A DNA stretch of 64,000 nt from the human T2T-CHM13v2.0 reference genome, Homo sapiens. The number at the start of each line of letters is the position of its first letter. The stretch's first letter is position 1. A program made the position numbers and the translations under genes. The stretch lies in assembly GCF_009914755.1 (NCBI RefSeq), contig NC_060930.1, one strand, 5' to 3'. Under the pieces are notes generated by a model. The model had not been told where the DNA came from. It was given only the letters and a program-made list of their open reading frames with translations, and searched no databases. Of this stretch, positions 1 to 64,000 are shown one piece after another.

Positions 1-4331
<4,331 letters not shown>

Positions 4332-10197: not shown

Positions 10198-16704
<6,507 letters not shown>

Positions 16705-16721
16705 TATGGCCAGACTTATTC

Positions 16722-23195
<6,474 letters not shown>

Positions 23196-23411: not shown

Positions 23412-24013
23412 TGTTGTGGTAAACTGAGGAATAGAGAGACCAATACAGAGTATAGGAGGATTTGTTTATTTTAGGTATGCATCAGCTCAGAGGATTCACA
23501 TCCAAAAGCTGATCCCTGAACAAAGACAGAGTGGGGTTTTTATAAGCGGCCTTACAGAAGCAAAATAAAAGCAGTAGCAAAATAAAAGCAGTTAATCATA
23601 CAGTAATAGGTCACATAATCTATAGCATAACATTAACTTGTGACCTAGACTGTGGCCTTGTAGCTGCATTAAAAGAAAAACAAGAACTGGCTAAATACAG
23701 ACATTTGTAAAACATAATCATGCTAATCATGCTTAAGAAGCCTGGGAAAAGAGTAACAGTAAAAGAACCTGTCTTTCTCTTTATTTTCTTTCAACCTTGC
23801 TCTGGAAGGGAGGAGTGTGTCTGGAGCCTACTTTTTTGGCCTTGGCTATTTGGACTGCATTATCTTCTAACTGTCCTTGAAGTGAGCTGCTAGGCAGAGA
23901 AAAACTTGTTCTTTTCTTTTTAACCTTTGCTTTGCCACATTCTGGGCCTTAGCTTTTACTTTTCTTGGAGTGAATAAATGCAGTACTTATTATTATTTTA
24001 AATATCTGCCTCA
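23412..24013 (-). repeat. 3' LTR of the ERV3-like provirus (LTR4/LTR76-like)
   Basis: Minus strand TGAGGCAG...CA. Direct repeat of 36174-36773. Preceded by a polypurine tract (aaagaggggaaac, 24014-24026). Confidence 0.93.
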
Positions 24014-26951
24014 GTTTCCCCTCTTTGGTGCCTTTTATAAAAGAAGTTTAATAGGAGGTATCACTATTACTTAGTTCTGCCTGAAGAGACAAGTTTTCTT
24101 CTTTAGACAAAGGTTGATATTTAAGCAGAGCCATTAGCTGAGTGGTAGTTTGCCTAGCTACTATTGCCTCTATAGTTGATTGAATGCTTCTAACAAAGAG
24201 AAGGAAGAGACAAGGGAGTATTAGGCAACTTCCTAGTATGGCCAGAACCACTCCTATTAAAGTCTTGGACCTTCTGAAAAATGAAAACTGGCCTACAAAG
24301 AGAGAATCTGGGGACCACATTTTCCAGGTTTGAACTGGAACATGGGCTAATTTTTCTCATTCTTGCAGTTATTTCCATAATTGCTTTTCCATTGTCATTG
24401 ATTTCCAGACAACAATTAGTTAGATTGAACTTTCCACATACTCCTCCTTCCTGGGCTAGGATGTAGTCTATAAAGCTAATCTGTTCTGATAGATAGTGTT
24501 TCTCATTTTTGTGGTTTGCTGGGCCAGTAAATCTAATGCATTTGCTGCTTCATTAGTGATGATTTCAAGTACTGCCTGCAACCTTATGATGTGGTGAAGC
24601 ATGTAAATAGGAGTGCGGTATCCCTATGATCCATCTTGTGCCCAGGTAGCTGGCCCATAGTATTGAATTATTTTTTCAGGGGGCTCATCTGTGTCTTTTT
24701 AATATCCTATTTTTATATCTCTCTTTATGTCTGCATCTCTTTTGTTTCTTCTTCTAAGTTCATCATACACAGGATCCCCTAAAGTTTTTCTCTATTGCAG
24801 TGGGAGTAGGAATAAAGATGGTCTAATTGTTCTAAGCACACAGGCCCCTGCCCATTTAACTGGCAACTGTTGATATGCCCATAGCCCACAGATCCAATAA
24901 AGACTGGGGGTTGCTTGCCAAGTATTTGGAGATTCAAGTTGATACCAAGTGTGGTTTAGAGAAGAGAAACGGGAGAACAGATTTGGATAAGGTGCTCTGT
25001 AGTCATCTGTGCCCTGCCACAAAGTTTTCCTTAATGTTTCATTGTAATATTGCCGTCCTAAGCAGGTTATTTCTCCTACTGGGTCTGTAAAAGCCTTTCC
25101 TCAGCGAGCAACACAGTATCTTCTAATAATAGAAGTTTTTAAGAGCCAGACGCTTGAACTTGTGGGCATCTGTTTGGGGAAAGAGTCACTCAGAGTAAAG
25201 TTATCTTGAGGCATTAACTTTTTTGCTTCCCAAGGCCATTGGTCTCCTATGTTAGTCCTTCCACAAACATAACATGAGCAAATGCCTAGGCTGCTGACAA
25301 TGTTTTCAACCAGCTGAATAAATAGGTTTTTGGCTAAAGGAGGAGGCTCTGGTAACTTCTGGTTTATATGCTCAAAGAATGACTTAAAGACCCATAATTG
25401 TTGCTGGGCTGACTGGTTGGTTTGAGTCCTGTTTAGAATATATAGTTATTTTAGCTTTTTGACCATAGCTTTGTAATGCCATGAAGTAACCTGTAGTCCA
25501 TATAGGTACATCTGGCTTTAAGATAGTAAGATTTACAGGATTGCAAGTGCTTGTCTTACAATTCGGTTTTGCTGGTACTCTGATGAGCAAGATTGGCTTG
25601 GCCTTGGTGATGATGTGTCAGTGAACTGTGTTGTGCAGTTCGGGTAAGCTATTGCTAGGGCCTTGGAAGGATAAACAGGGGGTGCACATACAATTTTGTA
25701 CTGGCAATTTGTATAATACCTTGTAGGACCAGAGATTGTGAGATGCGTTTGGTTCATGGATGTTAACTGACAAATATCAAAGTATATGGATATAGCTCCC
25801 CACTCTGGAAAGAGAGGCTTGGGTTTGACTTACAAGACTTCCTTCTTTTGACTTGGTATGAATCTCAAATTAAGTCCCAGGTAAAGGCTTAGGGTCATAA
25901 CATATATAAGGCTGGCCATTTCCTGGGTCACAAATTGAATAGGTGGTCTGATTATAAGTACAAGCTCCTAAGTGAGTCCTTGTACACTCATAATAAGTAT
26001 AGTACAATAGGGTTCTAGTTATATTGTTCCCTGACCAAGTAGTATGTTACAGTGGGGACACCCTTCTTTTTTTTTTCTTTTTTCCTCTTTTTCTTTTTTT
26101 TATTTAATGGTTTTATATTACTATTATTATTATTATACTTTAAGTTTTAGGATACATGTGCACAATGTGCAGGTTAGTTACATATGTATACATGTGTCAT
26201 GCTGGTGTGCTGCACCCATTAACTCGTCATTTAGCATTAGTTATATCTCCTAAAGCTATCCCTCACCCCTCCCCCCACCCCACAACAGTCCCCAGAGTGT
26301 GATGTTCCCCTTCCTGTGTCCATGTGTTCTCATTGTTCAATTCCCACCTATGAGTGAGAATATACGGTGTTTGGTTTTTTGTTCTTGCGATAGTTTACTG
26401 AGAATGATGATTTCCAATTTCATCCATGTCCCTACAAAGGACATGAACTCATTATTTTTTACGGCTGCATAGTATTCCATGGTGTATATGTGCCACATTT
26501 TCTTAATCCAGTCTATCATTGATGGACTTTTGGGTTGGTTCCAAGTATTTGCTATTGTGAATAGTGCCGCAATAAACATACATGTGCATGTGTCTTTATA
26601 GCAGCATGATTTATAGTCCTTTGGGTATATACGCATTAATGGGATGGCTGGGTCAAATGGTATTTCTAGTTCTAGATCCTTGAGCAATCACCACACTGAC
26701 TTCCACAATGGTTGAACTAGTTTACAGTCCCACCAACAGTGTAAAAGTGTTCCTATTTCTCCATATCCTCTCCAGCACCTGTTGTTTCCTGACTTTTTAA
26801 TGATTGCCATTGTAACTGGTGTGAGATGGTATCTCATTGTGGCTTTGATTTGCATTTCTCTGATGGCCAGTGATGGTGAGCATTTTTTCATGTGTCTTTT
26901 GGCTGCATAAATGTCTTCTTTTGAGAAGTGTCTGTTCATGTCCTTCACCTA

Positions 26952-27629
<678 letters not shown>

Positions 27630-27632
27630 TTA

Positions 27633-28508
<876 letters not shown>

Positions 28509-28511
28509 CTA

Positions 28512-28922
<411 letters not shown>

Positions 28923-29085
28923 TTATTCTCTGATGGTAGTTTGTATTTCTGGGGGATTGGTGGTGATATCCCCTTTATCATTTTTTATTGCATCTATTTG
29001 ATTCTTCTCTCTTTTCTTCTTTATTTGTCTTGCTAGCAGTCTATCAATTTTGTTGATACTTTCACAAAACCAGCTGCTGGATTCA

Positions 29086-30165
29086 TTAATTTTTTGAAGA
29101 GTTTTTTTGTGTTTCTATGTCCTTCAGTTCTGCTCTGATTTTAGTTATTTCTTGCCTTCTGCTAGCTTCGGATTGTGTTTGCTCTTGCTTTTCTAGTTCT
29201 TTTAATTGTGATGTTAGGGTGTCAATTTTGGATCTTTCCTGCTTTCTCTTGTGGGCATTTAGTGCTATAAATTTCCCTCTACACACTGCTTTGAATGTGT
29301 CCCAGAGATTCTGGTATGTTGTGTCTTTGTTCTCGTTGGTTTCAAAGAACATCTGTATTTTTGCCTTCATTTCGTTATATACCCAGTAGTCATTCAGGTG
29401 CAGGTTGTTCAGTTTCCATGTAGTTGAGCGGTTTTGAGTGAGTTTCTTAATCCTGAGTTCTAGTTTGATTGCACTGTGGTCTGAGAGACGGTTTGTTATA
29501 ATTTCTGATCTTTTACATTTGCTGAGGAGTGCTTTACTTCCAACTATGTGGTCAATTTTGGAATAGGTGTGATGTGGTGCTGAAAAAAATGTATATTCTG
29601 TTGATTTGGGGTGGAGAGTTCTGTTGATGTCTATTAGGTCTGCTTGGTGCAGAGCTGCATTGAATTCCTGGGTATCCTTGTTAACTTTCTGTCTCGTTGT
29701 TCTGTCTAATGCTGACAGTGGGGTGTTAAAGTCTCCCAATATTATTGTGTGGGAGTCTAAGTCTCTTTGTAGGTCACTCAGGACTTGCTTTATGAATCTG
29801 GGTGCTCCTGTATTGGGTGCATATATATTTAGGATAGTTAGCTCTTCTTGTTGAATTGATCCCTTTACCATTATGTAATGGCCTTCTTTGTCTCTTTTGA
29901 TCTTTGTTGGTTTAAAGTCTGTTTTATCCGAGAGTAGGATTGCAACCCCTGCCTTTTTTTGTTTTCGATTTGCTTGGTAGATCTGCCTCCATACTTTTAT
30001 TTTGAACCTATGTGTGTCTCTGCATGTGAGATGGGTTTCCTGAATACAGCACACTGATGGGTCTTGATTCTTTATCCAATTTGCCATTCTGTGTCTTTTA
30101 ATTGGAGCCTTTAGTCCATTTACATTTAAAGTTAATATTGTTATGTATGAATTTGATCCTGTCAT
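29086..30165 (-). pseudogene. L1 ORF2p N-terminal fragment (359 aa) covering the whole APE-like endonuclease domain
   Basis: ORF track: [14 protein letters not shown]...IQETH...IYAPN...GDFN...KIDH...SDHS; frameshifts after ...IETQK. Confidence 0.85.
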
Positions 30166-31813
30166 TATGATGTTAGCTGGTTATTTTGCTCAATAATTGA
30201 TGCAGTTTCTTCCTAGCCTCGCTGGTCTTTACAATTTGCCATGATTTTCCAGTGGCTGGTATCGGTTGTTCCTTTCCATGTTTAGTGCTTCCTTCAGGAG
30301 CTCTTTTAGGGCAGGCCTGGTTGTGACAAAATCTCTCAGCATTTGCTTGTCTGTAAAGTATTTTATTTCTCTTTCACTTATGAAGCTGAGTTTGGCTGGA
30401 TATGACATTCTGGGTTGAAAATTCTTTTGATTAAGAATGTTGAATATTGGCCCCCACTCTCTTCTGGTTTGTAGAGTTTCTGCCGAGAGATCCGCTCTTA
30501 GTCTGATGGATTTCCCTTTGTGGGTAACCCGACCTTTCTCTCTGGCTGCCCTTAATATTTTTTCCTTCATTTCAACTTTGGTGAATCTGACAATTATGTG
30601 TCTTGGTGTTGCTCTTTTCGAGGAGTATCTTTGTGGCGTTCTCCGTATTTCCTGAATCTAAACGTTGGACTGCCTTGCTAGATTGGGGAAGTTCTCCTGG
30701 ATAATATCCTGCAGAGTGTTTTCCAACTTGGTTCCATTCTCCCTGTCACTTTCAGGTACACCAGTCAGACGTAGATTTGGTCTTTTCACGTAGTCCCCTA
30801 TTTCTTGGAGGCTTTGTTCATTTTTTTTATTCTTTTTTCTCTAAACTTCCCTTCTCACTTCATTTCATCTTCCATCACTGATATGCTTTCTTCCAGTTGA
30901 TCGCATTGGCTCCTGAGGCTTCAGCATTCTTCACGTAGTTCTCGAGCCTTGGCTTTCAGCTCCATCAGCTCCTTTAAGTCCTTCTCTGTATTGGTTATTG
31001 TAGTTATAAGTTCTTCTAAATTTTTTCAATGTTTTCAACTTCTTTGCCTTTGGTTTGAATTTCCTCTTGTAGCTGAGAGTAGTTTGATTGTCTGAAGCCT
31101 TCTTCTCTCAACTCGTCAAAGTCATTCTCCATCCAGCTTTGTTCCGTTGCTGGTGAGGAGCTTCGTTCCTTTGGAGGAGGAGAGGCACTCTGCTTTTTAG
31201 AGTTTCCAGTTTTTCTGCTCTGTTTTTTCCCCATCTTTGTGGTTTTGTCTAGTTTTGGTCTTTGATGATGGTGATGTGCAGATGGGTTTTTAGTGTGGAT
31301 GTCCTTTCTGTTTCTTATTTTTCCTTCTAACAGACAGGACCCTCAGCTGCAGGTCTGTTGGCGTTTTCTAGAGGTCCACTCTAGACCCTGTTTGCCTGGG
31401 TACCAGCAGAGGTGGCTGCAGAACAGCAGATTTTCGTGAACCGAGAATGCTGCTGTTTGATCGTTCCTCTGGAAATTTTGTCTCGGAGGAGTACCCGGCC
31501 GTGTGAGGTGTCAGTCTGCCCCTACTGGGGGGTGCCTCCCATTTAGGCTGCTCGGGGGTCAGGGGTCAGGGACCCACTTAAGGAGGCAGTCTGCCCATTC
31601 TCAGATCTCCAGCTGCGTGCTGGGAGAACCACTGCTCTCTTCAAAGCTGTCAGACAGGGACATTTAAGTCTGCGGCGGTTACTGCTGTCTTTTTGTTTGT
31701 GCCCTGCCCCCAGAGGTGCAGCCTACAGATGCAGGCAGGCCTCCTTGAGCTGTGGTGGGCTCCACCCAGTTCGAGCTTCCCAGCTGCTTTGTTTACCTAA
31801 GCAAGCCTGGGCA

Positions 31814-31996
31814 ATGGCGGGCACCTCTCCCCCGGCCTCACTGCCACCTTGCAGTTTGATCTCAGACTGCTGTGCTAGCAATCAGCGAGACTCTGTGGGC
31901 ATAGGACCCTCTAAGCCAGTTGCGGGATATAATCTCCTGGTGCGCCGTTTTATAAGCCCATCGGAAAAGGGCAGTATTGGGGTGGGAGTGACCTGA
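31814..31996 (+). other. ORF0: L1 antisense ORF0 homologue (60 aa, prematurely terminated)
   Basis: gcaATGg then MAGTSPPASLPPCSLISDCCASNQRDSVGIGPSKPVAGYNLLVRRFISPSEKGSIGVGVT*, matching primate L1 ORF0 as recalled. Confidence 0.75.
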
Positions 31997-32559
31997 TTTT
32001 CCAGGTGCTGTCTGTCACCCCTTTCTTTGACTAGGAAAGGGAACTCCCTGACCCCTTGCACTTCCCGAGTGAGGCAATGCCTCGCCCTCCTTCAGCTCGC
32101 ACGTGCTGCACTGCACCCACTGTCCTGCGCCCACTGTCTGGCACTCCCTAGTGAGATGAACCCAGTACTTCAGATGGAAATGCAGAACTCACCCGTTTTC
32201 TGCATCGCTCATGCTGGGAGCTGTAGACTGGAGCTGTTCCTATTCGACCATCTTGGCTCCATCCCCCTGATTCTGTCGGGGACACCCTTCTGTAGGTGTT
32301 TCTTCTAGCATGGTTAAGTGGGGTGACAATGACAAAACAATGTACACTATATTCATATCCAGCAAGGACAAAAGAGGTCCTTACCTGGGATAAAGGTTGA
32401 GCATAGTGACAGAACATTAGTAAAACAGTATACGGGAATACCACTAGTCCTAAGAAGATTTCTAACTACATTACTTGCTTGATGAGTCCTTAAGCTTCGG
32501 CCGTGCATAGACTAGTCAGCTTCTGGTGTGTGTCTACAACAGAGCTTGTTGTTTCCTTA

Positions 32560-36173: not shown

Positions 36174-36773
36174 TGTTGTAAACTGAGGAATGGTGAGACC
36201 AATACCGAGTACAGGAGGATTTGTTTATTTTAGGCACACACTGGCTCAGAGGATTCACGTCCAAAAGCTGATCCCTGAACAAAGACAGAGTGGGGTTTTT
36301 ATAAGCGGCCTTACAGAAGCAAAATAAAAGCAGTAGCAAAATAAAAGCAGTTAATCATACAGTAATAGGTCACATAATCTATAGCATAACATTAACTTGT
36401 GACCTAGCCTGTGGCCTTGTAGCTGCATTAAAAGAAAAACAAGAGCTGGCTAAATACAGATATTTGTAAAACCTAATCATGCTATTCATGCTTAAGAAGC
36501 CTGGAAAAAGAGTACCATAAAAGAACCTTTCTCTTTATTTTCTTTCAGCCTTGCTCTGGAAGGGAGGGGGTGTGTCTGCAGCCTATTTTTTTGGCCTTGG
36601 CTATTCCAACAGAGTTATCATCTAACTGTCCTTGAAATGAGCTGCTAGGTGAAGGAAAACTTGTTCTTTTTTTTTAACCTTTGCCTTGCCACATTCTGGG
36701 CCTTAGCTTTTACTTTTCTTGGAGTGAATAAATGCAGTACTTATTATTATTATTATTTTAAATTTCTGCCTCA
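36174..36773 (-). repeat. 5' LTR of the ERV3-like provirus
   Basis: Direct repeat of 23412-24013; adjacent to the PBS. Confidence 0.93.
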
Positions 36774-38603: not shown

Positions 38604-39734
38604 GTTCAAGAGTTTTGCCTATTTTTTCTTTAGTTTCCTGTGCTTTTGGTGTCATATCCAAGAAATTGTTGCCAAATCCAATGCCATGAAGCTTTTGTCT
38701 TATGGTTTTTTCTAAGAGTTTATAGTTTTAGGTGTTACATTTCAGTCTTTGATCAATTTTGAGTTATTTTTTGTATATGATATTAGGTAAAAGTGCAACC
38801 TCATTCTTTTGCAAGTGGATATCCAGTTTTCTAAGCAGCGTTTGTTGAAAAGAATGTCTTTTCTCTCTTGAATGGTCTTGGCACCCTTGTGAAAATCATT
38901 AGACCTTAAATGTGAGAGTTTATTTCTGGGTATCCTCTTCTATTTGATTGGTCTACATATCTATCTTTATGCCAATATTACATTGTTTCTTTTTTCTTTT
39001 TCTTTTCTTTTTTTACTGACCCATTGGTAGACATACACTTTTAATTACCGTAGCTTTGTAGTAAGTTTTGAACTCAGGTAAATCCTCTGGGTTTGTTCTT
39101 CTACATGATTGTTTAGGCTATTCACAGCCCCTTGAAATTATTCATAAATTTTAGAATGGATTTTTCTATTTCTGCCAAAAAGTCATTGGGATTTTGATAG
39201 AGATTGTACTAAAATTGTAGATTGCTATGGTAGTATTGAGATCTTAACAATATTTAGTCTTCCAATTCATGAACATAGGATGTTGTTCCATTTATTTATA
39301 TTTCCTTTAATTTCTTTGGAAATATTTTACAGTCCTTGACTTTCTTGGTTAAGTTAATTTTGAAGTACTTTATTCTTTTTGATGCTACTGGAAATAGAAT
39401 TGTTTTCTTAATTTCCTTTTCAAATTGTTCATTGTTAGTGTATAGAATTTGTAACACACAGATTTTGGTGTGTTCTCTCTGTATTCTACTACTTTGCTGA
39501 ATTAATTTAATTAGTTCTAAAATTTTTTTGTTGAATCTTTGGGTCTTTCTACATGTAAGATTCTATCATCCATGAACAGAGATAATTTTGTTTCCTTTCT
39601 GATTTGGATGACTTTTATTTATCTTGCTTACTTGCTCTGGCTAGGACTTCCATTGTTATGTTGAAGAAGTGGTGAAAGTGACACCCTTGCTTTGCTGTAT
39701 GTTTTTAACATAGGCTTGTATTATATTGAGATAG

Positions 39735-40093
<359 letters not shown>

Positions 40094-41494: not shown

Positions 41495-41560
<66 letters not shown>

Positions 41561-41770
41561 GGCTTGTATTATATTGAGATAGCTTCCTTCTATTCCTAGT
41601 TTGTTGAGTGTTTCTATCATAAAAAGGGTGTTAAATTTTGTAATTTTTTTTCTTTTTTTGAGACAGTGTCACTTTGTCACCCAGGCTACAGTGCAGTGGC
41701 ATGATCTCAGCTCACATATATATATATACATATATATATGTATATATGTATATGTATATATATACATATA
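41495..41770. repeat. (CT)n(TA)n microsatellite interrupted by a 160-bp templated copy (41556-41715)
   Basis: Directly visible; the insert matches 39708-39869. Confidence 0.92.
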
Positions 41771-57309: not shown

Positions 57310-57754
57310 ATCTAGTACAATCACCTCACATAGCTAAGATTTTCTTTTCTTCTTTTTTATTGGAAGAGAACACTTAAGATCTACCCTCTTAGTGAATTTC
57401 AAATATACAACACTGTATTGTTGACTACAGTCACCATGCTGTACATTAGATATCCAGAAATTATTCAACTGGCATAACTGAAACTTAGTTCCCTTTGACC
57501 AATATCACCTTATTACTCCCTCCTCTAGCCCTTGGCAACCACTATTCTACTCTCTGCTTATGTGAGATTGATTATTTAAAATTCCACGTATAAGTGAGAT
57601 CATATAGTATTTTTCTTTCTGTGCCTGGCTTAATTTATTCAGTATAAGGTCCTCTAGGCTCATCCATGTTGTCACAAAAAAAGATGAATAATATTTCATT
57701 GTGTATATGTGTGTGTGTGTGTATACACCCACCACATTTTCTTTATCCATTTAT

Positions 57755-60700
57755 TTTTATTGTTTATTATACTTTAAGTTCTGGGGTACATGTCCAGAAA
57801 GTGTAGTTGTGTTACATATGTACACAACGTGCCATGATGGTTTGCTGCACCCATCAACCTGTCACCTACATTAGGCATTTCTACTAATGCTATCCCTCCC
57901 CTAGCCTCCCAACCCATGACAAGCCCTGGTGTGTGATGTTCCCCTACATGTGTCCATGTGTTTCCATTGTTCAACTCCCACTTATGAGTGAGAACATGTG
58001 ATGTTTGGCATTCTGTTCTTGTGATAGTTTGCAGAGAATGACGGTTTCCGGCTTCATCCATGTCCCTGCAAAGGACATAAACTCATCCTTTTTTTGGCTG
58101 CATAGTATTCCAGGGTGTATATGTGCCACATTTTCTTTATCCAGCCTATTATTGATTGACATTTGGGGTGGTTCCAAGTCTTTGCTATTGTGAATAGTGC
58201 TACAATAAACATATGTGTCCATGTGTCTTTATAGTAGAATAATTTATAATCCTTTGGGTATATGCCTAGTAATGGGATTGCTGGGTCAAACGGTATTTCT
58301 AGTTCTAGATCCTTGAGGAATCGCCACACTGTCTTCCACAATGCTTGAACTAATTTACACTCCCACCAACAGTGTAAAGGCATTCCTGTTTCTCTACGTT
58401 TCCTCCAGCATCTGTTGTTTCCTGACTTTTTAATGATTGCCATTCTAACTGGCGTGAGATGGTATCTCATTGTGGTTTTCATTTGCATTTCTCTGATGAC
58501 CAATGATGATGAGCATTTTTTCATATAATTGTTGGTCGCATAAGTGTCTTCTTTTGAGAAGTATCTGTTCATATACTCTGCCCACTTTTTTGATGGTTTT
58601 TTTTCTTCTTATAAATCTATTTAAGTTCTTTGTAGATTCTGGATATTAGCCCTTTGTCAGATGGATAGATTACAAAAAATATCTCCCATTCTCTATGTTG
58701 CCTGTTCACTCTGAGGATGGTTTATTTTGCTGTGCAGAAGCTCTTTAGTTTAATTAGATCCCATTGCCAATTTTGCCTTCTGTTGCCATTGCTTCTGGTT
58801 TTTTAGACATGAAGTCTTTGCCCATGCCTATGTCCTGAATGGTATTGCCCAGGTTTTCTTTTAGGATTTTAATGGCTTACGTCTTACGTTAAAGTCTTTA
58901 ATCCATCTTTATTTGATTTTTGTATAAAGTGTAAGGAAGGGGTCCAGTTTCAGTTTCCTGTCTATGGCTAGCCATTTTCCCAACATCATTTATTAAATAG
59001 GGAGTCTTTTTCCCACTGTTGTTTGTGTCAGGTAGGTCAAAGATCAGATGGTTGTAGATCTGTGGTGTTATTTCTGAAGTATCCGTTGTGTTCCATTGGT
59101 TTATATATCTGTTTTGGTACCAGTACCATACTGTTTTGGTTACCATAGCCTTGTAGTATAATTTGAAGTCAGGTAGCCTTATGCCTTCAGCTTTGTTCTT
59201 TTTGCTTAGGATTTTCTTGGCTATGCAGGCTCATTTTTGGTTCCATATGAAGTTTAAAGTAGTTTTTTCCAATTTTGTGAAGAAAGTCAATGGTAACTTG
59301 ATGAGGATAGCATTGAATCTATTAATTACTTTGGGCAGTATGGCCATTTTCATGATATTGATTCTTCCTATCTATGAGCATGGAATGTTTTTCCATTTGT
59401 TTGTGTCCTGTCTTATTCCTTGAGAGGTGGTTTGTAGTTCTACTTGAAGAGGTCCTTCACATCCCTTGTAAGTTGTACTCCTAGGCATTTTCTTCTCTTA
59501 GCAGCAATTGTGAATGGGAATTCACTCATGATTTGGCTCTCTGTTTGTGTGTTATTGGTGTATAGGAGTGTTTGTGATTTTTGCATATTGATTTTGTATC
59601 CTGAGACTTTGCTGAAGTTTCTTATCAGCTTACAGAAGTTTTTGGCTGAGATGATGGGGTTTTCTAAATATACAATTATGTCATCTGCAAACAGAGACAA
59701 TTTGACTTCCTCTTTTCCTAATCGAATACCCTTTATTTCCTTCTCCTGCCTAATTGCCCTGGCCAGAACTTCCAACTATTCACTACATTGAGATTCTGGG
59801 TTGAAAACATTTTTCTTTATGAATGTTGAATATTGGCCACCACTCTCTTCTGGCCCGTAGTGTTCCTTCAGAGAGATCTGCTGTCAGTCTCATGGGCTTT
59901 GCTTTGTTGGTAACCTGATCTTTCTCTCTGGCTGTGCTTAACATTTTTCCTTCCTTTCATCCTTGGTGATTCTGATGATTACGTGTCTTGGGGTTGCTCT
60001 TCTTGAGAATTATCTTTGTGGTGTTCTCTGTATTTCCTGAATTTGAATGTTGGCCTGTCTTCCTAAGTTGGGGAAGTTTTCCTGGATAATGCCCTGAAGA
60101 GTGTTTTCTAACTTGTTTTCTTTCTCCCCATCACTTTCATGTACATGAATCAAATGTAGGTTTGGTCTTTTCACATAGTCCCATATTTCTTGGCAGCTTT
60201 GTTCGTCCCTTTTTATTCTTTTTTCTCTAATCTTGTGTTCTTGCTTTATTTTATTCAGTTGATCTTCAATCTCTGATATCCTTTCTTCCACTTTATTGAT
60301 TTGGCTATTGATACTTGTGTGTGCTTCATGAAGTTCTCATGCTGTGTTTTTCAGCTCCATCAGGTCATTTGTATTCTTCTCTAAACTGGTTATTCTAGTT
60401 CGCAATTCATCTAACCTTTGTTCAAGGTTCTTAGCTTCCTTGCATTGGGTTAGAACGTGCTCCTTTAGTTCAGAGGAGTTTGTTATTACTTACCTTCTGA
60501 AGCCTACTTCTGTCAATTTGTCAAACTCATTCTCTATCCAGTTTTCTTCCTTGCTGGTGAGGAGTTGTGATCCTTTGGAGAAGAAGCATTCTGGTTTTTG
60601 GAATTTTCAGCCTTTTTGCACCCTTTGCAGCCTTTGTCTTTGATGTTGGTGACCTTTGGATGGGGTCTTTAAGTGAACATTCTATTCCTTTCTTTTTCTT

Positions 60701-61947
60701 AGTTTTCCTTCTAACAGTCAGGCCCCTCTCCTGCAAGTCTGCTGGAGTTTGCTGGAGTTCTACTGCAGACCCTGTTCACCTGGGTATCACCAGCGGAGGC
60801 TGCAGAACAACAAAGATTGCTGCCTGTTCCTTCCTCTGGAAGCTTTGTCTAAGAGGGGCACCTGCCAGATGCCAGCCAGTGCTCTTCTCTATGAGGTGTC
60901 TGTTGGCCCCTGCTGGGAGGTGTCTCCCAGTCAGGATACACAGGGGTCAGGGACCCACTTGAAGAGGAAGTCTGATCCTTAGCAGAGCTCAACGCTGTGC
61001 TGGGATGCCCACTGCTCTCTTCCAGGCCATCAGGCAGGGACGTTTAAGTCTGCTGAATCTGTGGCCACAGCCATCCCTTCCCCCTAGTGCTCCATCCCGG
61101 GGATATGGGAGTTTTATCTATAAGCCCCTGACTGGGGCTGCTGTCTTTTTTTCAGAGATGCCCTGCCCACAGAGGAGAAATCTGGCAGTCTATCCACAGC
61201 AGCGTTGCTGAGCTTCAGTGGGCTCTGCCCAGTTCAAACTTCCCAGTGGCTTTGTTTACACTGTGAGGGTAAAACCACCTACTCAAGCCTTAGCAATGGA
61301 GGACGCCCCTCCCCCCACCAAGCTCTAGCATCCCAGGTTAGTCTTGGACTGCTGCTGTGCTGGCAGCGAGAATTTCAAGCCAGTGTATCTTTGTTTGCTG
61401 GACTCTGTGGGGGTGGAACCCATCATGCCAGACCACTTGACTGTCTGGCTTCAGCACCCCTTTCTAGGGGAGTGAATGGTTCTGTCTCACTGGCATTCCA
61501 GGCACCACTGGGGTTTGGAAAAAAAAAAAAAAAACAAACTCCTGCATCTAGTTCAGTGTCTGCCCAAATGGCTGCCCAGTTTTGTGCTTGAAACCCAGGT
61601 TCCTGGCAGGATAGACACTGGAGGGAATCTCCTGGTCTGTGGGTTGGAAAGACCATGGGAAAAGTGCAGTTTCTGGGCCAGAGTGCATGGTTCCTCAGGC
61701 TCAGTCCCTCATGACTTCTCTTGGGTAGGGGAGAAAATTCTCTGACCCCTTGCACTTCCTGGGTGAAGTGATGTCCCACTCTGCTTCGGCTTGCCCTCCA
61801 TGGGGTGCACTCACTGTCCAATGAATCCCAATGAGATGAACCATGTACATCAGTTGGAAATGCACACAAATAATCTTCCTTCTTCATTGATCTCACTGGG
61901 AGCTGAAGAACAGGGCTGTTCCTATTTGTCAATCTTACCAGCAATCT
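57755..61947 (-). mobile_element. LINE-1 (L1PA7-like), copy L1-6, with a ~2-kb internal deletion
   Basis: Both ends present. 20-bp TSD with 2 mismatches: cattttctttatccatttat (57735-57754) / catcttctttattcatttat (61948-61967). ORF2 RT is joined directly to ORF1 at about 59791. Confidence 0.93.
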
Positions 61948-62671
61948 CATCTTCTTTATTCATTTATATGTTGACAGACATTTAGGTTGTTTCCATATTT
62001 TTGCTATTGTAAAAAATGCTGCAATGAATGCGCAGATATTTCTTTGAAATAGTAATTTTATTTTTTTGGATATATATGAAGAACTGAGATTGTTCTATCA
62101 TAGATAGTTCTATTTTTAATTTTTGGAGGAACCTACTCTACTGAAAGAATAGACTCCTCTTATATTAGAGGAGCATCCTAAATTTGCTGAGCTAACTTAT
62201 GTTCTCACCAACAGTATCTTATCTTTTGTCTTTTTGATAACAGCCATTCTAACAAGCATACAATTGTGGTTTTGATTTGCGTTTATCTGATGATTATTGA
62301 AGCTAAGCACCTTTACATATATTTGTTGGCCATTTGTATGTATTTTTTTGAGAAATGTATCTTCAGATCCTTTGTCAACTTTATTTATTTTTTTTTACTA
62401 TTGGAATGTAGGAGATTTTTGTATATTTTGGATATTAACCCCTTATCAGATACATGGCTTGCAAACATTTTCATCTATTCTGTAGGTTGCCTTTTCACTC
62501 TGGTAATTGTCTCTTTTGCCATGCAGAAGATTTTTAGTTTGATGAAGTCCTACTTGTCTATTTTTGCTTTATTGCATGTGCTTTTGATGTCATATCTATA
62601 AAATACTTGCCCAGGCCAATGTCAAGAGGCTTTCCCCCTATGTTTTCTTCTAGTAGGTTTATAGTTTCAGG

Positions 62672-64000
<1,329 letters not shown>

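What the first reader, a model, noticed from the sequence alone, without database searches (positions are those of the whole stretch)
59765..59805. A private insertion motif is shared by L1-6 and L1-2, and L1-6's 2-kb deletion starts right at it
Seen: cagaacttccaactattcactacattgag occurs at about 12391-12419 (L1-2, PA6-like) and about 59764-59792 (L1-6, PA7-like), 47 kb apart. Other copies read aacttccaa(c/t)(a/g)ctatgttgaat, so the two share a 5-nt insertion plus substitutions. In L1-6 the motif runs straight into ORF1 sequence (attctgggttgaaaa). The ~50 bp before it (ttccttctcctgcctaattgccc) matches L1-4 rather than the PA7-like L1-5. Inference: a shared indel is hard to explain by parallel mutation; it points to sequence transfer between copies, perhaps during the repair event that caused the deletion.
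Basis: partly seen in the sequence, partly recalled or inferred. Interest (0 to 1): 0.7.

Follow-up and report, generated by a model that had tools for sequence, protein, structure and literature searches.

The report
Two-donor repair patch in L1 deletion
An old, broken jumping-gene copy (LINE-1) on human chromosome 6 has lost 2.2 kb, and the scar holds two tiny patches that match other LINE-1 copies, one of them a neighbour 47 kb away; this is likely a fossil of one DNA-repair event that hopped between similar repeats, a known kind of process with no predicted function.

Summary
The 19-nt motif occurs exactly twice in the genome (L1-2 and L1-6, 47,373 bp apart), against 8,149 copies of the canonical site, so it is neither a lineage marker nor parallel mutation. 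L1-6 is one old insertion (18/20 target-site duplication) with a unique internal deletion of about 2.24 kb that joins ORF2 to ORF1. The junction is a three-step mosaic: old-type L1-6 sequence to 59695; a young-type patch (4 of 4 diagnostic bases, against 3 of 75 upstream); 24 nt identical in all three sources; the L1-2 patch (16-40 nt); then L1-6's ORF1, with only an imperfect TGA microhomology. The young patch matches L1-4, but also about 3,000 other young L1s, so L1-4 is a candidate donor only. Best reading (0.65): one break in L1-6, repaired by short copying from two diverged L1 templates in turn and closed by end-joining. [quoted passage not shown] Direction and the single-event claim are inferred and need ape orthologues. 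It is a clean molecular fossil of a known mechanism.

The parts
57735..57754 (+). Left target-site duplication of L1-6, inside an older L1 fragment
   Evidence: 18 of 20 identical to 61948-61967; the two flanks map to L1-4 reference 207-401 and 379-701, i.e. contiguous
57750..59695 (-). L1-6 3' arm (3' UTR and ORF2 end), old-type
   Evidence: young state at 3 of 75 diagnostic sites; terminal branch 0.089, sister to L1-5
59721..59752 (-). Patch from a young L1 (start lies between 59696 and 59740; end between 59752 and 59776)
   Evidence: 4 of 4 diagnostic sites young (59721, 59740, 59746, 59752); product of old-panel frequencies about 7e-6
59753..59776 (-). 24-nt window identical in L1-6, L1-2 and L1-4; inferred template-switch zone
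59776..59792 (-). Patch carrying L1-2's private 5-nt insertion, CA and G
   Evidence: 2 of 2 genomic hits; 40-nt identity with L1-2
59789..59796 (-). Deletion junction ORF2 to ORF1 (about 2.24 kb lost); TGA shared by both sides, the next base follows L1-2
   Evidence: the degenerate junction pattern has 1 match in the genome
59793..61942 (-). L1-6 5' arm (ORF1 remainder and 5' UTR), old-type
   Evidence: 84% to L1-5, 79-81% to the young copies L1-0, L1-1, L1-4 and L1-7
61948..61967 (+). Right target-site duplication of L1-6
12380..12419 (-). Inferred donor tract in L1-2 (10267-16414), collinear L1 on both sides
   Evidence: L1-2 keeps the old state at 3 of the 4 young-patch sites
28100..28152 (-). 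Candidate donor of the young patch in L1-4 (26116-32267)
   Evidence: 53-nt exact match; the only one of 7 neighbours that keep the site to carry the C,C,A block; not unique genome-wide

Best explanation
L1-6 carries a 2.24-kb internal deletion whose junction holds a short young-L1 patch followed by a short patch identical to L1-2, and these likely arose in one DNA-break repair event that copied from two similar L1 templates in turn and was then closed by end-joining. Shown: the mosaic, the private motif, the single-insertion status of L1-6 and the unique junction. Inferred steps, read left to right on the + strand: (1) a break or collapsed fork in L1-6, with loss of about 2.2 kb; (2) the left 3' end pairs with a young L1 at the homologous ORF2 position (L1-4, 31.6 kb away, is the nearest candidate) and copies 13-80 nt; (3) the nascent strand switches within the 24-nt three-way identity to L1-2 and copies 16-40 nt, including its private insertion; (4) it is released and joined to L1-6's ORF1 through an imperfect TGA microhomology. 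The donors stay unchanged. The event would be younger than the young L1 lineage that carries the block and far younger than L1-6 itself. No function is predicted.
For: The motif is private: 2 copies against 8,149 canonical. The TSD and contiguous flanks show one element. Two independent foreign patches sit in the last 72 nt before the junction; on its old-type arm L1-6 shows no other run of young states longer than 1, and the pair scan found no other L1-2/L1-6 private substitution in reference 1-2030. Both entry points are at homologous positions and the exit is non-homologous, the order expected of homology-led invasion followed by end-joining. Direction: L1-2 is collinear on both sides and old enough (branch 0.063; 3.3 private changes per 56 nt) to own the changes, while L1-6's last 56-nt bin has 1 private change against a mean of 4.3. 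Precedent: homologous template switch then end-joining in mouse ES cells (PMC5104497, passages); switches among dispersed retrotransposons, 7 of 10 intrachromosomal (PMC4215184); about 50-fold preference for same-chromosome donors (PMC2996329).
Against: One genome cannot order the events. A conversion tract made after the deletion would also end at the junction. L1-2's insertion plus the next two bases is a perfect 7-nt inverted copy of the canonical sequence at the breakpoint (17 of 1,024 possible 5-mers do as well), which fits an origin at the break in L1-6. L1-4 differs from L1-6 at 59723 and 59711, and 3 of the first 100 listed young copies carry L1-6's base at 59723, so the young donor may lie elsewhere. 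Invasion of templates only 85-89% identical is disfavoured (400- to 900-fold drops for highly diverged templates in yeast). The low private-change count in the last bin is weak alone: 5 of 36 L1-6 bins have 1.
Confidence: 0.65

Rival explanations
1. Separate events: L1-6 first lost 2.24 kb by microhomology joining at TGA(A), and one or two later ectopic gene conversions overwrote the bases left of the junction, stopping where homology ends.
For: The canonical ORF2 and ORF1 sides share TGAA, a ready microhomology. Heterology would stop any later tract exactly here.
Against: It needs two or three independent events within 72 nt of a 4.2-kb element whose other 75 diagnostic sites show no patch. 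The last base before ORF1 follows L1-2, so the tract would have had to overwrite the microhomology without a right-hand homology arm. The bare junction occurs in no other copy (1 match).
Confidence: 0.15
2. The motif was born in L1-6 at the break (an inverted, locally templated insertion plus error-prone synthesis) and was later copied into L1-2.
For: The insertion plus CA is the reverse complement of the 7 canonical bases at the breakpoint (chance 17 of 1,024); three changes cluster within 17 nt of the break.
Against: It needs a second break at the homologous site in L1-2 and a tract under 41 nt that leaves out the young base 1 nt to its left. The CA state arises independently in 47 canonical-context copies and CA+G in 4. 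L1-2 has other locally templated rearrangements of its own.
Confidence: 0.1
3. The patches came from L1 RNA or cDNA: reverse transcriptase extended L1-6's broken end on a then-active young L1 transcript, perhaps during insertion of the young L1-7 0.75 kb away, and then switched to L1-2.
For: The + strand is the cDNA strand, so the left-to-right order fits reverse transcription. L1-7's 3' half is young (57 of 58 sites), lacks this region, shows no TSD, and breaks in ORF1 53 nt from L1-6's breakpoint in L1 coordinates. L1 cDNA intermediates recombine with DNA breaks in cells (PMC13526784, abstract).
Against: The identified donor is an old, decayed copy in cis, which favours DNA proximity. No poly(A) or TSD marks the patch. 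The breakpoint coincidence is only of the order of a few per cent (my estimate).
Confidence: 0.07
4. No transfer: a lineage marker, parallel mutation or an assembly error.
For: None from the calls. Reads and other assemblies could not be checked.
Against: 2 copies genome-wide; the two copies fall in different clades and are 86-88% identical in ORF2; L1-2's nearest relative L066 lacks the motif. A 40-nt swap between loci this diverged is not a usual long-read assembly error (own knowledge).
Confidence: 0.03

Closest known systems
[quoted passage not shown]
   Same: A nascent strand switches to a second homologous template and is then joined to the second end by microhomology or a single added base.
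   Different: There it is an induced break in a mouse reporter, with kilobase tracts and identical templates. Here it is a germline-transmitted event, with tracts of tens of bases and donors 85-89% identical.
Template switching among dispersed Ty elements in yeast (PMC4215184 sections 7 and 13; PMC2996329 passages)
   Same: Serial jumps between diverged retrotransposon copies, with a preference for donors on the same chromosome.
   Different: Yeast outcomes are long BIR translocations or triplications; here synthesis aborts after tens of bases and returns to the broken element.
Gene conversion of a broken L1 by endogenous L1s (Tremblay et al. 2000; only its title was seen, in a reference list; text not held)
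   Same: Endogenous L1 copies serve as repair donors for a broken L1.
   Different: Here the right side has no homology and 2.24 kb is lost, so it is not a completed two-sided conversion.
Non-homologous L1 rearrangements, TEMR-NHE (PMC9675761 passages and section 8)
   Same: The deletion joins non-homologous L1 positions with little microhomology; 60 of 96 L1 events in that study were of this class.
   Different: This deletion lies within one element and hides same-family templated patches. The word 'templated' does not occur in that paper's main text.

Membership tests
Template-switch repair junction (non-canonical HR termination / FoSTeS-type) | Inserted sequence traceable to an ectopic template | tested here: met
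   2 of 2 genomic hits are L1-2 and L1-6; young patch 4 of 4 sites
Template-switch repair junction (non-canonical HR termination / FoSTeS-type) | Entry and switch at homologous positions | tested here: met
   patches are in register; 24-nt three-way identity
Template-switch repair junction (non-canonical HR termination / FoSTeS-type) | Exit by microhomology or base addition at a non-homologous site | tested here: met
   ORF2-to-ORF1 join; TGA shared, next base mismatched to canonical ORF1 (0-4 nt effective)
Template-switch repair junction (non-canonical HR termination / FoSTeS-type) | Donors left intact (non-reciprocal) | tested here: met
   L1-2 and L1-4 are collinear across the site, with TSDs; L1-4 lacks the insertion
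Template-switch repair junction (non-canonical HR termination / FoSTeS-type) | All junctions formed in a single event | not testable with these tools
   no primate genomes or human haplotypes are held
NAHR / TEMR-HR deletion | Both breakpoints at the same position of the repeat, rebuilding a full chimeric element | tested here: not met
   breakpoints 2.24 kb apart in L1 coordinates
Classical non-allelic gene conversion | Homology to the donor on both sides of the tract | tested here: not met
   homology to L1-2's ORF2 ends at 59792
L1 subfamily or lineage marker | Motif shared by many unlinked copies | tested here: not met
   2 linked copies against 8,149 canonical
Spliced L1 insertion | GT-AG ends on the lost segment and a recurrent junction | tested here: not met
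   on the sense strand the lost segment begins TT and ends TA (read); the junction is unique

The most novel reading that the evidence does not exclude
The insertion of the young L1-7 next door broke and rebuilt its neighbourhood in one event: its cDNA patched L1-6, synthesis then jumped to the DNA of L1-2 47 kb away, and both L1-6 and L1-7 were truncated at nearly the same ORF1 position. More widely, many internal L1 deletions would hide such same-family multi-donor patches, invisible to repeat annotation, and would form a fossil record of germline template switching and of chromatin contacts.
Probability: 0.1. Interest if true: 0.6.

Novelty: new member of a known kind. Interest (0 to 1): 0.3.

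Why it matters
The locus itself is decayed repeat DNA with no gene in the window except a pseudogene (hub annotation), so no function is at stake. Its value is as a base-resolved natural example in which a repair donor can be named: a copy about 87% identical and 47 kb away in cis, preceded by a second donor. If ape orthologues confirm one event, it shows multi-template switching between diverged L1s in the primate germline, and it suggests a cheap genome-wide screen of L1 deletion junctions for hidden patches. Such patches can also mislead subfamily calls and dating of single copies.

Tried and rejected
Lineage marker: rejected. A longer L1-2 to L1-6 conversion or a duplication origin: rejected; identity is 86-88% and no other pair-private substitution was found in reference 1-2030; the 11 in ORF1/5' UTR rest on only 8-9 copies and lie within the range of other pairs (0-33). 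A 52-nt exact L1-2/L1-6 match at 58620-58671 and a 77-nt L1-8/L1-6 match carry no pair-private base and were not counted as tracts. Fusion of two separate L1s: rejected by the TSD and contiguous flanks. Splicing or a recurrent junction: rejected. Motif inherited from L1-2's source element: its best genomic relative L066 lacks it. L1-4 as the proven donor: not established. Successive NAHR duplications followed by a large deletion would give the same order, but need crossovers within 70 bp of each other; rejected on parsimony. The C/T base after the insertion does not give direction, because L1-2's relatives are mixed. In one search the insertion was sliced 1 nt off; one search corrects it. Five coordinate strings for the two sites gave no hit in 3 of 3 supplementary files of PMC12350158; the full variant list may not be among them, so polymorphism remains open. 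Paper searches listed nothing on this locus; the locus was not searched by coordinate in full text, and subscription papers are missing. A panel of L1-2's relatives beyond L066 and an outside ORF1 panel were not obtained, so the ORF1 side of the junction is compared with 8 neighbours only.

Full report
Observation. The 29-mer is at 12391-12419 and 59764-59792. Its 19-nt core has 2 matches in the window at up to 3 mismatches, against 0.02 expected, and 2 exact matches in the whole genome. A 17-mer spanning the insertion, with 1 mismatch allowed, gave 27 hits against 38 for the reversed control. Of the 25 inexact hits none has the L1PA flanks; one lies at the homologous site of a 70%-identical older L1. 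The canonical site occurs 8,149 times, so the scan does count L1 copies. The component substitutions recur rarely by themselves: CA in 47 canonical-context copies, CA plus G in 4. The combination with the 5-nt insertion is private to these two copies, 47,373 bp apart.

Setting. The window lies in a cluster of 9 long L1 copies within 124 kb, 8 of them on the minus strand. L1-6 (57750-61942) has a 20-nt target-site duplication with 18 matches, and its flanks are contiguous parts of an older L1. It is therefore one insertion with an internal deletion, not a fusion. The lost stretch is 2,225-2,247 nt in 6 of 7 intact neighbours and runs from late ORF1 to about 2 kb into ORF2 (L1-4 sense coordinates about 1861-4106; the ORF assignment is partly from my own knowledge). 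A degenerate junction pattern matches only here, and the lost segment has no GT-AG ends (read).

Anatomy of the junction. I compared the cluster copies with 29 genomic relatives of L1-6 (30 loci were cut of 40 scored matches, one being L1-6 itself) and with L1-2's best relative. Twenty-two copies formed the old panel; the seven young-type relatives and L066 were left out of it. At 79 sites that separate the youngest copies (L1-4, L1-7, L048, L062, L063) from the old panel, L1-6 is young at 3 of the first 75 and at all of the last 4 (59721, 59740, 59746, 59752). The product of old-panel frequencies at those four is about 7e-6, and the position was fixed in advance by the junction. Genome-wide, the block goes with the young upstream base in 2,988 copies and with the old one in 48, while the old block with the old base occurs 786 times. 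The 48 are 1.6% of block carriers, which fits point mutation in a young family (inference). Next come 24 nt identical in L1-6, L1-2 and L1-4, then L1-2's insertion, CA and G, then ORF1. Identity to L1-2 is 40 nt, so the copied tract is 16-40 nt. At the exit TGA is common to both sides, and the next base follows L1-2 rather than canonical ORF1.

Who gave to whom. L1-2 is collinear on both sides of the motif and keeps old states at three of the four young-patch sites. It is diverged enough to own three changes in 17 nt (3.3 private changes per 56 nt) and carries other local rearrangements. One break in L1-6 explains the deletion and both patches; the reverse direction needs a second break at the same site in L1-2. 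Against this, the insertion plus two bases is an exact inverted copy of the 7 canonical bases at the breakpoint, matched by 17 of 1,024 possible 5-mers. The young donor is not identified. L1-4 is the only one of 7 neighbours that keep the site to carry the full block and matches over 53 nt, but L048 and L063 match equally, L1-4 differs at 59723 and 59711, and young L1-7 has lost the region.

Mechanism. Read on the + strand, the order is homologous entry, homologous switch, non-homologous exit. This is the signature of synthesis-dependent repair that copies briefly from ectopic templates and ends by end-joining (inferred; 0.65). The event postdates the young lineage (terminal branches 0.007-0.024) and is much younger than L1-6 (0.089). 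The patch holds 0-1 later changes in 72 nt, which gives no lower bound: it could even be polymorphic. Rivals are separate deletion and conversions (0.15), origin at the break and copying to L1-2 (0.10), RNA or cDNA templating tied to L1-7 (0.07), and no transfer or an assembly error (0.03).

What is known. A homologous template switch followed by end-joining with one added base was shown in mouse ES cells (PMC5104497; abstract, introduction and passages). Switching among diverged and natural retrotransposon repeats, mostly on the same chromosome, was shown in yeast (PMC4215184, sections 7 and 13; PMC2996329, passages). Repair of a broken L1 from endogenous L1s is the title of Tremblay et al. 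2000 (reference list only). Non-homologous L1 deletions are common in human genomes (60 of 96 L1 events; PMC9675761, section 8), and 83.1% of 30,449 unclassified deletions have 1-15 nt of microhomology (PMC12350158, passages). L1 cDNA can recombine with breaks (PMC13526784, abstract). Eight paper searches listed no description of this locus, and five coordinate strings were absent from 3 supplementary files; larger variant tables that I could not see may bear on polymorphism.

Verdict. Real and correctly seen, and richer than first read because there are two donors. It works like, and meets four of five tested or testable features of, a template-switch repair junction; the single-event feature could not be tested. 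It is not NAHR, not a two-sided gene conversion, not a splice product and not a lineage marker. New member of a known kind; interest 0.3.

Noticed in passing
window 16716-23193 (L1-3), switch at 20737-20758: Chimeric L1: the 3' two-thirds is young (mostly 90-96% to L1-4/L1-1), the 5' third old (85% to L1-5, 79% to young copies), joined in register; no TSD found. It looks like a homologous L1-L1 recombination product.
   Followed up: partly
window 62686-64000 and L006:1-1948 (L1-7), junction at about 64039: A young 3' half (1,356 nt) joined to ORF1 with 1 nt of microhomology and no TSD found; its ORF1 breakpoint is 53 nt from L1-6's in L1 coordinates. It may be an insertion-mediated deletion or a fusion of two copies.
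   Followed up: partly
window 41556-41715 vs 39708-39869: A 160-bp copy (95.7%) of a nearby stretch ending in an Alu-like fragment (recognised from memory) sits inside the (TA)n run beside L1-5's tail: a second locally templated insertion.
   Followed up: no
window 23412-24013 and 36174-36773: Paired 600-bp LTR-like repeats (91.7%) with TG...CA ends and an apparent 4-bp target duplication, suggesting a decayed endogenous provirus on the minus strand with L1-4 inserted inside; family not determined.
   Followed up: no
window 11110-11340 and 12970-13020 (L1-2): A tandem duplication of about 115 bp that shares private bases between its copies, and a deletion of about 115 bp with a short local duplication at its junction.
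   Followed up: partly
window -15193 to 78012 (L003-L008 plus window): Nine long L1 copies of different ages in about 93 kb, eight in the same orientation; at least three carry large rearrangement junctions.
   Followed up: no
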